Assembly: GCF_055900595.2 (NCBI RefSeq)
Contig: NZ_CM148325.1
DNA length: 64,000 nt
Direction: 5' to 3' (one strand)
Position numbers: made by a program
Shown here: positions 6,001 through 9,000 of the stretch, piece after piece
Numbering within the stretch: position 1 is the stretch's first letter
Layout: each line of letters opens with the position of its first letter

Positions 6001-9000
6001 AACTTTTCTGCGATATCTCCAGGTAAGAAGCCAAGATCTTCATCGGCTTGCAGAACTGGACGGGTGACGATAATCCTGTCGACATCCTTATGTATCAGGG
6101 CCTCTGCCGCTTTTGCTGCGCTGATCCAGGTTTTTCCGCACCCGGCTTCGCCGGTGGCGAATATCAGCTGCTTACTCTCAATAGCCTTCAGATAGTGCAA
6201 TTGCGCTTCATTTCGCGCGAGGATGGGCGAGGTATCGCGACTGTCGCGGGCCATACCAATGGCTTCTACGCCGCTCATCTGCACAAGCGAGGTGACCGAT
6301 TCTTCTTCACGCTGCTTATGGCTGCGCGAATCCCGTCTCAGCACACGTTTTGCCTCGCGACGAGCTTTGATCACTGCTTTTTGTCTTCCCATGGAGAGCA
6401 CCTTGAGTTGTTTGTATTCATCACACGCGCCGTTGGCAGCGCGATTATGCGCACGAACATCAGAGGGTTGGCTTCCTTGTAAGCCATAGTTTGCTGTTGG
6501 ATAAAATGCCGAAAAACGGCTACGCACACCGTTTGCGGCGTCGGTAACACGAGTAAAGTGAGGAAGTGAGAAAAATACAGAGTGACGAAGTTGCTACCGG
6601 AGGAGAAATCTCCGCGAGTGGTGGAGCGTTGCTTAACAAAACATTGTCCAGTACAGGACGTTACCATCCGCGATCTCCATAGTGACTGACTATCACTGCC
6701 GGGAACTTCCGCTGCTACTTAATAATTACAACAGATCTCGCATTCATTGCAACAATATATTCACTTATATTTAACTATAAAACACCATTTCAGTGACATT
6801 AGTTTCTACTGGAAAGATGACAGAGTGATGACAGTGATGAAAAAAGCTGTGTGCTTTCAGCAGGATTCGCATAAGGCATCAACGCACGAACGCCGGATGC
6901 GGCGTGAACGCCTTATCCTGCCTACCAAACCCGCACCGATTGTAGGCATGATAAGACGCGCAAGCGTCGCATCAGGCATCAGCGCATTACCGCCGGATGC
7001 GGCGTGAACGCCTTATCCTGCCTACCGAACCCGCACCGATTGTAGGCATGATAAGACGCGCAAACGTCGCATCAGGCATCAGCGCACGAACGCCGGATGC
7101 GGCGTAAATGCCTTATCCGCCTCTAAAAATTAAACTCGCAATAATGCGCTTCCAAGATAATCGCTCGCGTCCTTCACCCCCGGCAGCGCAAAAAAATAAC
7201 CGCCGCCGATGGGTTTAACGTATTCCTCCAGCGCTTCACCATTGAGCCTTTTTTGTACTGTCAGGAAGCCCTTTTCCAGATCGTGTTGGTAGCAGACAAA
7301 CAGCAACCCCATATCCAGTTGCCCGGAGTTGGTAACACCCAACGAATAACTGTAGCCACGACGCAGCATCAGGCTGGACTCGCTCTCCGCCGTGCGGGGA
7401 TTCGCCAGCCGGATATGGCTGTCCAGCGCGATCACCTTCCCCTCCGGATCGCTGGCGTAATCAGGCACATCATGCTCATGCTGCATTCCCAGCGGCGCGC
7501 CGGTTTGTTTGTCGCGACCAAAAATTGTCTGCTGTTCTTTCAGCGGCGTTCTGTCCCAAAATTCCACTCGAAACTGAATCAAACGCACCGCCTGGTAGCT
7601 GCCGCCGATAGCCCACGCAGGCTCCTGCTGATCTGCCGTCACCCACACTACTTTTTGCATCAATTTCGCATTTTGGCTGTCAGGATTAGCAGTGCCGTCT
7701 TTGAAGCCCAGCAAATTAATCGGCGTCTCTTTGCCTTTACTACGCGCTGCGTGGTCGGAAATAAACCCTTCCCGCTTCCAGCGCACACTGAGCAAATCCG
7801 GCGTGTGTTTGATGATATCGCGCAGTGCATGGATCACCGTGTCCTGGGTATTGGCGCAAATCTGTAGCAACACATCACCATGACATAACGCCGCATCAAG
7901 CGAGTCGTTAGGGAAACGTGTCATCTTCTGCAACTTTTTCGGCATCTGCTGCGCAAGGCCAAAACGCTCATCAAACAATGAGTGGCCCACCGATAACGTG
8001 ATGGTGAGATTATCGGGCGCAATGTAGCCGCCAAGAATGCCGGAATCGCGTGGCGGCAGGCGTGGATTTGACGTTTCTGGTGCCGCTCCGCCCTGAGTCA
8101 GAAAAGCAAAACGCTGAGTCAACAAGCGAAACAATCGCTCAAGATCAGCTTTATCGCTGGCAAGCACATCAAACGCCACCAGCATCATTGCGGCCTGCTG
8201 CGGCGTCAGAATACCCGCCTGATGTTCGCCATAAAACGGCTGCGCTTCACTGCGCGCATCCGGTGAAAGCGTCCCCGGCGCACTTAGTGGTTTTTGCGCA
8301 TGCGCTACCGGGCAACTTCCCGCCAGTGCCAGCGCGCCAATCCCTTTCAGTAAACGTCGGCGTGACGGTTCATTCACGCCGTTTTCATCTTCATACTGCA
8401 TAACGCTTAATCCAGCCCCAGCACACCGCGAAGTTGCGCCAGATCTTCCGCTAGCGCAGTAATCGGCCCTTTCAGCGCATTACGATCGGCATCGGTCAAT
8501 TTGTCGTAGGTTTCAAAACCGTCTTTGGTACGGTATTTCGCCAGAATGGTATCGACCTTTTTGAAGTTAGCATCGACTTTTGCCAGCAGTTCCGGGTTGG
8601 CTTTTTGTAGTTGTGGACGCAGCAGATCGACAATTTTCTGCGAGCCTTCAACGTTAGCCTGGAAGTCCCACAGATCGGTGTGGCTGTAGCGATCTTCTTC
8701 ACCGCTGATTTTGCTGGCTGCCACTTCCTCAATCAGTCCGGCTGCGCCGCCGACCACTTTTGAAGGTGGGAAAGCCAGTTCACTGATGCGTTTTTGCAAA
8801 TCGACCACATCGGTATAAAGCTGGTCAGCATACTGATCCATTCCTTTGGTGGTATTGTCGCCAAACAAGGCTTTTTCCAGACGGTGGAAACCGGTGAATT
8901 TCGGATCGGCGGCTTTTTGCTCGTAATCATCTTCACGGGCGTCAATGCTACCATCCAGATCAGAGAACAGCTCAGCAATCGGTTCGATGCGCTCATAGTG

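What the first reader, a model, noticed from the sequence alone, without database searches (positions are those of the whole stretch)
6869..7122. Tandem BIME array with exact 100-bp period
The REP unit cgccggatgcggcgtgaacgcc recurs at 6891, 6991 and 7091, interleaved with two copies of a second REP type. Such arrays are known in E. coli, but copy number varies between strains and they can bind IHF and gyrase. The ORF-track entry 6747..7007 is a translation of these repeats and is not a gene.
Basis: partly seen in the sequence, partly recalled or inferred. Interest (0 to 1): 0.2.

Follow-up and report, generated by a model that had tools for sequence, protein, structure and literature searches.

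The report
Ordinary BIME-2 repeat array, copy-number variable
This is a well-known type of E. coli intergenic repeat (a BIME-2 array of five small hairpin-forming REP units) between the efeB and phoH genes; it is real and its copy number varies widely between strains, but it is an ordinary, already described kind of element.

Summary
Window 6867-7122 holds 2.6 head-to-tail copies of an exactly 100-bp unit (91% match, no indels). The unit is a Y-type REP, a 16-nt linker, an inverted Z2-type REP and a 12-nt linker. That gives five REPs plus a Z2 stub.

The array lies between the efeB stop codon (7130-7132, minus strand) and the phoH pho box (6817-6834). It fits BIME-2: Y and Z2 units in alternating orientation, short linkers and no IHF site.

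Across 5,426 complete E. coli genomes this junction behaves as a 100-bp minisatellite. Alleles range from 0 to 16 REPs, and most differences are exact 100-bp steps.
- About 92% of a 59-genome sample carry 2-3 REPs.
- Only 44 genomes (0.8%, a lower bound) have two or more full periods.
- Only 8 genomes match the window exactly.

The 100-bp period is shared with the model BIME-2, REP325, but another BIME-2 has a 91-bp period. ORF 6747..7007 is not a gene.

The most likely role is inferred, not shown: a hairpin array in the efeUOB 3'UTR that blocks exonucleases and partly attenuates read-through toward phoH, and probably a gyrase site.

Already known; low interest.

The parts
6867..7122 (.). Whole BIME-2 array: 2.6 copies of a 100-bp unit, five REPs plus a stub
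   Evidence: TRF period 100, 91% match, 0 indels, score 442; register shown
6867..6878 (+). Left-edge stub: the last 12 nt of a Z2-type REP (tcgcataaggca, 1 mismatch to tcgcatcaggca)
   Evidence: Direct reading, in register with 6967-6978 and 7067-7078
6879..6890 (+). Head-to-head linker, 12 nt (tcaacgcacgaa)
   Evidence: Direct reading
6891..6925 (-). Y-type REP number 1. The GTAG foot reads on the minus strand; the + strand ends in CCTAC
   Evidence: Y label from Messing 2012 and Ton-Hoang 2012. Hairpin fold of the identical unit at 6991-7025 gives -14.9 kcal/mol
6926..6941 (+). Tail-to-tail linker, 16 nt (caaacccgcaccgatt)
   Evidence: The 54-mer centred on the near-identical second tail linker (7026-7041, 1 nt different) matches a median of 3 places per E. 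coli genome, so it is a shared family motif
6942..6978 (+). Z2-type REP number 1 (GTAGGCATGATAAGACGCGCAAGCGTCGCATCAGGCA)
   Evidence: 36 of 37 identical to the Z2 unit of REP325
6979..6990 (+). Head-to-head linker, 12 nt (tcagcgcattac)
6991..7025 (-). Y-type REP number 2, identical to number 1
7026..7041 (+). Tail-to-tail linker, 16 nt (cgaacccgcaccgatt)
7042..7078 (+). Z2-type REP number 2 (1 difference from number 1)
   Evidence: Hairpin -12.6 kcal/mol, z = -2.9
7079..7090 (+). Head-to-head linker, 12 nt (tcagcgcacgaa)
7091..7121 (-). Y-type REP number 3. It is degenerate (gtAaaTgcc) and lacks the GTAG/CTAC foot. Predicted pairing begins 7-8 nt after the efeB stop codon
6945..7022 (-). Head-to-head Y+Z2 pair that matches Rfam naRNA4 (RF02564) above the gathering score
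   Evidence: 71.8 bits against a gathering score of 59.5. Folds as a 78-nt hairpin, -37.9 kcal/mol, z = -3.1
7045..7122 (-). Second Y+Z2 pair that matches Rfam naRNA4
   Evidence: 63.0 bits against a gathering score of 59.5. -34.9 kcal/mol
7130..7132 (-). efeB stop codon (TAA). The array is the start of the efeUOB 3'UTR
   Evidence: ORF 7130..8401; annotated as efeB in the identical genome
6817..6834 (-). phoH pho box CTGTCATCACTCTGTCAT, 32 bp beyond the array's distal end
   Evidence: A single match in the window against 0.03 expected. The consensus is from my own knowledge of PhoB boxes
6747..7007 (+). Mechanical ORF (TTG start, 86 aa) that overlaps the phoH promoter and the array. It is not a gene
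   Evidence: Length and C-terminus are not conserved across 12 alleles. Never annotated

Best explanation
This is a BIME-2 element: a tandem array of Y-type and Z2-type REP palindromes in alternating orientation. It sits in the 3' untranslated region of the efeUOB iron-uptake operon, just upstream of the PhoB-dependent phoH promoter.

The window's allele has five REPs. It arose, and keeps changing, by gain and loss of whole 100-bp units. The likely route is slipped-strand mispairing or unequal recombination between the direct repeats, possibly helped by the REP-associated transposase.

On the efeB-sense transcript each REP folds into a GC-rich hairpin. The most likely role is the dual one shown for the model BIME-2, REP325:
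- a barrier to 3'-to-5' exonucleases that protects the upstream efeUOB message;
- a partial, probably Rho-assisted, attenuator that limits read-through into phoH.

At the DNA level the array is probably a transcription-independent gyrase site.

Identity and copy-number behaviour are shown here. The RNA and gyrase roles are inferred from the family.
For: Anatomy:
- Exact 100-bp period with alternating Y and Z2 units and short linkers.
- Y/Z2 labels are fixed.

Family match:
- The Z2 unit is 36/37 identical to that of REP325. Both have a 100-bp period and the same Y-then-Z2 order relative to the upstream gene.
- Two Rfam naRNA4 hits lie above the gathering score on the efeB-sense strand.

Position:
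- efeB stop at 7130-7132.
- Predicted structure starts 7-8 nt later.
- No hairpin-plus-T-tract terminator lies between efeB and phoH.
- The pho box is at 6817-6834.

Folding:
- Single REPs fold at -12.6 to -14.9 kcal/mol and Y+Z2 pairs at -35 to -38.
- The whole array has z = -6.2.

Copy-number dynamics:
- Alleles of 80, 180, 280, 380, 480, 780 and 880 bp, and of 98, 198 and 298 bp, all with unit spacing of exactly 100 (one 99 in strain AHM8C212RI).
- K-12 and strain QML220614 have identical flanks but arrays of 180 and 80 bp.

Literature:
- BIME-2 definition and variable copy number between strains.
- Gyrase cleavage sites are enriched in BIME-2, mostly in Y units.
- REP325 acts as a stabiliser plus a partly Rho-dependent terminator.
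Against: - No expression, RNA 3'-end or gyrase data for this locus could be consulted. efeB and phoH are absent from the gyrase Topo-seq supplements held and from the REP325 preprint.
- Natural alleles with 0 or 1 REP exist, so the array is dispensable for viability.
- The REP325 preprint reports that REP effects depend strongly on context and that terminal REPs do not generally lengthen mRNA half-life.
- The mechanism of unit gain and loss was not tested.
Confidence: 0.85

Rival explanations
1. The array is a neutral or selfish minisatellite. It expands and contracts by slippage or by REP-transposase activity and has no role that selection maintains at this locus.
For: - Copy number ranges from 0 to 16 REPs among viable natural isolates.
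- Changes recur on identical flank haplotypes.
- Units inside long arrays carry scattered point differences.
- The terminal Y unit has lost its GTAG foot.
- The REP325 preprint finds large variance and no general half-life effect of terminal REPs.
Against: - About 92% of sampled genomes keep 2-3 REPs.
- A BIME occupies the same junction in a separate Escherichia species.
- Every allele with at least one intact REP keeps a predicted structure starting 6-11 nt after the efeB stop.
- The model BIME-2 has measured effects on its flanking genes.
Confidence: 0.3
2. The array encodes naRNA4-like nucleoid-associated RNAs that bind HU and bridge REP cruciforms to condense the chromosome.
For: - Two minus-strand matches to Rfam RF02564 above the gathering score (71.8 and 63.0 bits against 59.5).
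- Same Y-linker-Z2 layout as the naRNA units of REP325.
Against: - The Rfam model in effect recognises any head-to-head Y+Z2 pair.
- A 2026 preprint from a group that includes the original senior author reports that REP325 and naRNA4 do not measurably compact the nucleoid and that REP-REP contacts are not HU-dependent.
- No evidence of a discrete RNA from this locus was available.
Confidence: 0.05
3. The array is an IHF-binding BIME (BIME-1, also called RIB or RIP).
For: Only the general statement that some BIMEs bind IHF.
Against: - IHF binds the long L linker of single-copy BIME-1 elements made of Z1 and Y.
- Here the linkers are 12 and 16 nt, the units are Z2 and Y, and the element is tandem.
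- The consensus WATCAANNNNTTR has only three matches in the window, all more than 9 kb away.
Confidence: 0.02
4. ORF 6747..7007 (86 aa) is a real small protein gene.
For: It is an open frame with a TTG start.
Against: - The homologous frame is 44, 59, 65, 86, 97, 101 or 115 aa in 12 alleles, and the C-terminus differs wherever the array differs.
- The 100-bp period shifts the reading frame at each repeat.
- The N-terminal 40 codons are antisense to the phoH promoter and pho box.
- It is not annotated in any of the RefSeq genomes inspected.
Confidence: 0.01

Closest known systems
BIME-2 (bacterial interspersed mosaic element, family 2; Gilson/Bachellier nomenclature as summarised by Ton-Hoang 2012)
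   Same: - Y and Z2 REPs in alternating orientation, short linkers, tandem multi-copy layout and extragenic position.
- Copy number at one locus varies between strains.
- The tail linker is a motif shared with other BIME-2 loci.
   Different: - Nothing essential differs.
- The terminal Y unit is degenerate and lacks the GTAG foot, and the left edge is a 12-nt Z2 stub.
- I did not assign the classical S/s/l/r linker names, because the defining papers were not available.
REP325, the yjdM-yjdN BIME-2 of K-12 that is the source of naRNA1-6 (Rfam RF02564)
   Same: - Exactly 100-bp period.
- Nearly identical Z2 unit (36/37) and a similar Y unit.
- Same Y-then-Z2 order on the transcript of the upstream gene, and located between tandem genes.
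- Rfam hits above threshold.
   Different: - Five REPs here against 12 there.
- Linker lengths are 13+16 here and 12+17 there, taking Y as 34 nt.
- The head linker is unrelated, and the core of the tail linker (GGTGCGGG) is in the opposite orientation.
- The downstream gene here has its own PhoB-dependent promoter rather than being in the same operon.
K-12 allele of the same efeB-phoH BIME
   Same: Same junction, same flanking anchors and same unit sequences.
   Different: - K-12 has one period only (Y + Z2).
- An 18-bp deletion leaves only the distal half of the terminal Y unit, so K-12 is 118 bp shorter.
- Predicted structure still starts 6 nt after the stop codon.
BIME-1 / RIB / RIP elements (IHF-binding)
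   Same: They are built from REPs in inverse orientation at the 3' ends of transcription units.
   Different: - They are single copy and made of Z1+Y units.
- They have a long L linker that carries an IHF site. None of these applies here.

Membership tests
REP / palindromic unit | 30-40 nt imperfect palindrome able to form a hairpin | tested here: met
   Units are 35 and 37 nt. Hairpins fold at -12.6 to -14.9 kcal/mol with the internal mismatch
REP / palindromic unit | Conserved GTAG tetranucleotide 5' of the hairpin foot (CTAC on the complement) | tested here: met
   GTAGG at 6942 and 7042; CCTAC at 6921-6925 and 7021-7025. The terminal unit 7091-7121 lacks it, so it is met for 4 of 5 units
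REP / palindromic unit | Extragenic location and many dispersed copies in the genome | tested here: met
   Lies between the efeB stop and the phoH promoter. REP core has 15 matches in the window against 0.63 expected. Median of 7 matching places per E. coli genome
BIME-2 | Made of Y and Z2 REPs in alternating (inverse) orientation | tested here: met
   Order on the + strand is Z2 stub, Y, Z2, Y, Z2, Y. Unit types are fixed by the y REP sequence, the TGCC|TGAT rule and comparison with REP325. My script labels were swapped and are corrected
BIME-2 | Short linkers and no L motif or IHF site | tested here: met
   Linkers are 12 and 16 nt. No WATCAANNNNTTR match within 9 kb
BIME-2 | Tandem copies whose number varies between strains at a given locus | tested here: met
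   2.6 copies here. 0 to 8 periods in other E. coli genomes
BIME-2 | Preferential binding and cleavage by DNA gyrase | not testable with these tools
   Shown for the family in the literature. This locus is not mentioned in the supplements held
BIME-1 / RIB (IHF-binding) | Single Z1+Y pair separated by a long L linker that carries an IHF site | tested here: not met
   The units are Z2+Y, the element is tandem, the linkers are 12 and 16 nt, and there is no IHF consensus
naRNA4 (Rfam RF02564) | Covariance-model score at or above the gathering threshold | tested here: met
   71.8 and 63.0 bits against 59.5, on the minus strand
naRNA4 (Rfam RF02564) | Discrete ~77-nt transcript that binds HU and is associated with the nucleoid | not testable with these tools
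   No expression data available. The function itself is disputed
Intrinsic (Rho-independent) terminator | GC-rich hairpin followed directly by a T-tract | tested here: not met
   The scan of 6300-7400 reports no terminator-like site between the efeB stop and phoH; its only hit lies inside efeB. The T6 at 6840-6845 follows only a weak fold (z = +0.75)

The most novel reading that the evidence does not exclude
The efeB-phoH BIME-2 might act as a tunable 100-bp minisatellite. Its copy number (0 to 8 periods across E. coli) would set how strongly the iron-regulated efeUOB transcript is stabilised and how well it is insulated from the phosphate-regulated phoH promoter 32 bp away. Frequent slippage would then give lineages a heritable, reversible expression dial without any change to coding or promoter sequence.
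Probability: 0.12. Interest if true: 0.45.

Novelty: already known. Interest (0 to 1): 0.13.

Why it matters
It matters little on its own. BIME-2 arrays and their copy-number polymorphism between strains have been described since the 1990s, and this exact allele is present in eight RefSeq genomes.

The useful by-products are these:
- A clean natural allelic series at one junction: 0, 1, 2, 3, 4, 5, 6, 8, 14 and 16 REPs, with most differences in exact 100-bp steps. It could serve as a ready-made test bed for the proposed stabiliser/terminator role of REPs.
- A practical caution that the mechanical ORF over the repeat should not be annotated.
- A caution that Rfam naRNA4 hits simply flag Y+Z2 REP pairs.

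Tried and rejected
1. Counting long alleles by query coverage failed, because overlapping BLAST pieces were joined to 100% coverage even for short alleles.

2. Counting periods with a 54-mer on the tail linker failed, because the linker is a shared BIME-2 motif (median 3 places per genome, up to 10). A strict E-value cut-off worked instead.

3. I first labelled the GCCGGATGCGGCG unit Z2 and the GCCTGATGCGACG unit Y from memory. Searches show the reverse, so the labels printed are swapped. This is corrected and throughout this report.

4. I considered that the window-type alleles alone keep a REP within 15 nt of the efeB stop, because K-12-type alleles have an 18-bp deletion there. That would have made translation control polymorphic. 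Folding rejected it: every allele with at least one intact REP starts a stable structure 6-11 nt after the stop.

5. I considered that the exact 100-bp period might be special. It is shared with REP325 but not with the tldD-yhdP BIME-2, which has a 91-bp period. TRF found no tandem array at sucB-sucC.

6. Literature gaps:
- Liang, Rudd and Deutscher 2015 and Gilson 1991 are not held.
- Supplements of Ton-Hoang 2012 and Qian 2015 are not held.
- No paper links REPs to the efeB-phoH junction.
- The gyrase supplements do not mention efeB or phoH.

7. The genome-collection scan with the pho-box 19-mer returned only two Escherichia loci and five chance hits. The age of the element in E. albertii, E. 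fergusonii and Salmonella therefore remains open.

Full report
**Observation.** Window 6867-7122 contains a tandem repeat with a period of exactly 100 bp, 2.6 copies, 91% matches and no indels (TRF score 442). The repeat finder shows the three copies in register. It is the only tandem repeat scoring at least 80 in the 64-kb window.

At 7091 it matches 20 of 22 bases. The REP core motif has 15 matches in the window against 0.63 expected by chance.

**Anatomy.** Reading the + strand, the array consists of:
- a 12-nt stub of a Z2 unit (6867-6878);
- a 12-nt head linker;
- Y unit 1 (6891-6925, ending CCTAC);
- a 16-nt tail linker;
- Z2 unit 1 (6942-6978, starting GTAGG);
- a 12-nt head linker;
- Y unit 2 (6991-7025);
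- a 16-nt tail linker;
- Z2 unit 2 (7042-7078);
- a 12-nt head linker;
- a degenerate Y unit 3 (7091-7121) that lacks the CTAC/GTAG foot.

The lengths 35 + 16 + 37 + 12 add up to 100. The two full Y units are identical. The two Z2 units differ at one base, as do the two tail linkers.

**A correction to my own labels.** I first named the units from memory the wrong way round. Messing 2012 gives the "y REP" bound by the REP transposase as GTAGGACGGATAAGGCGTTTACGCCGCATCCG. Ton-Hoang 2012 states that the TGCC|TGAT site occurs in z1/z2 units but not in y units. The labels printed by my scripts are swapped (noted).

**Context.**
- The flanking genes are pgaC and pgaD on the + strand, then phoH, efeB, efeO and efeU on the minus strand.
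- The efeB stop codon is at 7130-7132.
- On the efeB-sense strand, predicted pairing of the first REP begins 7-8 nt after the stop.
- A perfect pho box, CTGTCATCACTCTGTCAT, lies at 6817-6834 on the minus strand. It is 32 bp beyond the far end of the array and is unique in the window (0.03 expected).
- No hairpin-plus-T-tract terminator lies between efeB and phoH. The T6 next to the pho box follows only a weak fold (z = +0.75).

The array is therefore the beginning of the efeUOB 3'UTR and abuts the phoH promoter.

**Classification.** Ton-Hoang 2012 defines BIME-2 as Y plus Z2 units in inverse orientation, with short linkers, in tandem copies whose number varies between strains. BIME-1 is a single Z1+Y pair with a long L linker that often carries an IHF site.

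The array meets every sequence criterion of BIME-2 and none of BIME-1. The IHF consensus WATCAANNNNTTR has only three matches in the window, all more than 9 kb away. The IHF remark does not fit.

Rfam reports two naRNA4 (RF02564) matches above the gathering score on the efeB-sense strand, at 6945-7022 (71.8 bits) and 7045-7122 (63.0 bits) against a threshold of 59.5. These are simply head-to-head Y+Z2 pairs. They fold as 78-nt hairpins of -35 to -38 kcal/mol.

**Comparison with the model element.**
- REP325 of K-12 (yjdM-yjdN) also has a period of exactly 100 bp, with 5.8 copies.
- Its Z2 unit is 36/37 identical to the window's.
- It has the same Y-then-Z2 order relative to the upstream gene.
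- Its linkers differ: 12+17 nt against 13+16 nt when Y is taken as 34 nt. The core of the tail linker, GGTGCGGG, is in the opposite orientation.
- The tldD-yhdP BIME-2 has a 91-bp period.

So 100 bp is one linker-dependent variant and not a universal or special value.

**Copy number in other genomes.** Only 8 of 5,426 complete E. coli genomes match the window at 99% or better. I took a spread sample of 59 genomes with a query made of the flanks only:
- 54 have an array of the K-12, O157 or Nissle size (2-3 REPs);
- 3 have 0-1 REP;
- 2 are longer, one of which is the window's own genotype.

With an E-value cut-off that only a colinear match through two full periods can pass, 44 genomes (0.8%, a lower bound) remain. 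They break down as follows:
- 8 identical to the window;
- 2 with an extra 8 bp;
- 2 with the same length on a different right flank;
- 2 of the 280-bp type;
- 30 that stop aligning at the array's end, which suggests more periods (all five that I fetched do have more).

Lengths measured between fixed anchors were 80, 98, 179, 180, 186, 198, 206, 214, 280, 298, 306, 380, 479, 480, 780 and 880 bp. That corresponds to 0 to 16 REPs. Unit spacing is exactly 100 bp in every array except a single 99-bp spacing in strain AHM8C212RI.

K-12 (180 bp) and strain QML220614 (80 bp) have identical flanks. So do the window (298 bp) and strain MFDS1022581 (306 bp). The five-REP state occurs on at least two right-flank haplotypes. 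Changes have therefore happened repeatedly.

A BIME also occupies this junction in Escherichia sp. E1V33, a separate species-level genome in the collection. The element therefore probably predates the split between E. coli and that lineage.

**The ORF.** The frame 6747..7007 starts with TTG. It runs antisense through the phoH promoter and pho box for about 40 codons and then through the repeat. In 12 alleles the homologous frame is 44 to 115 aa long, and the C-terminus differs wherever the array differs. A 100-bp period cannot preserve a reading frame. No RefSeq annotation inspected places a gene there. It is not a gene.

**How it most likely works.** Two things are shown here:
- the identity of the element as BIME-2;
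- the gain and loss of whole 100-bp units.

The following points are inferred from the family:
- Transcripts that end efeB must run into the array, because no terminator intervenes.
- The hairpins then act as in REP325. They form a barrier to 3'-to-5' exonucleases that protects the upstream message, and a partial, partly Rho-dependent attenuator that lowers transcription of the downstream gene (Harris et al. 2026 preprint).
- A structure starting within 15 nt of a stop codon is reported to stall terminating ribosomes and lower translation (Liang et al. 2015, as described; the original paper is not held). Every allele with at least one intact REP keeps such a structure 6-11 nt after the efeB stop. 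So this would be a constant feature of the locus and not a polymorphic one.
- At the DNA level the Y units are probable gyrase cleavage sites.

The neutral-repeat rival remains serious, for two reasons. Alleles with 0 and 1 REP exist in natural isolates. The preprint also stresses strong dependence on context.

**Verdict.** This is a correctly identified, ordinary BIME-2 array and is already known as a kind. The allele is uncommon, being intermediate in a locus that ranges from 0 to 16 REPs, but it is not remarkable. Interest is low.

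Noticed in passing
window 6400-9800 compared with 4800-6399: Identity to K-12 changes near the junction. pgaC, pgaD and the phoH coding region are 96.5-99.5% identical. From about 6400 through efeB, efeO and efeU the 200-nt bins are mostly 87-96% identical, with three bins at 97.5-99% (lowest 87% at 8200-8399). The flanks-only query was also only 92.5-96.3% identical to the other genomes listed in the spread sample. This suggests a hyper-divergent or recombinant efeUOB segment in this lineage.
   Followed up: partly
window 6371-6668: K-12 annotates a long 354-aa PhoH. Its start would correspond to about window position 6668. In this strain that frame is broken. ORFs 5604..6527 and 6371..6667 are in different frames, and there is one gap column against K-12 in 6400-6599. 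PGAP calls the short 262-aa PhoH (5604-6392) in the identical genome.
   Followed up: partly
window 5609-5802 (+): There is a strong Rfam match to Ysr251 (RF02855, Yersinia antisense sRNA): 190.8 bits against a gathering score of 100. It lies antisense to the 3' end of phoH. It probably reflects conservation of the phoH coding sequence and not a demonstrated E. coli RNA.
   Followed up: no
L014 (E. coli A5), about 1360-2240; L015 (PE164): At the same junction strain A5 carries 16 REPs (8 periods, 880 bp between anchors) and PE164 carries 14. Both exceed the 12 units of REP325, which the literature describes as among the longest in K-12.
   Followed up: partly
L004, L010, L011 (alleles of 306, 214 and 206 bp); equivalent to window 7083-7090: An 8-bp micro-repeat (CGCACGAA/GCACGAAC) in the head linker next to the terminal Y unit is present in 1, 2 or 3 copies in different strains. 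This adds 8-bp steps on top of the 100-bp steps.
   Followed up: no
L026 (Escherichia sp. E1V33), about 280-460; L013 2806-3385 (REP325): At the same efeB-phoH junction the other Escherichia species has a tail linker GGATGGCGCGAGAATTT. It resembles the REP325 linker (GGAGGGTGCGGGAATTT) and not the E. coli one. The core of the E. coli linker is the reverse complement (AATCGGTGCGGGTTCG), so the linker appears inverted or exchanged between lineages.
   Followed up: no
window 23003, 28909/28981, 48661, 50102/50121: Other REP units occur elsewhere in the window, as singles and inverse pairs. None is tandemly arrayed.
   Followed up: no
window ~9590 onward (efeU): efeU is annotated as an intact permease in the genome identical to the window. 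It is a pseudogene in K-12.
   Followed up: no
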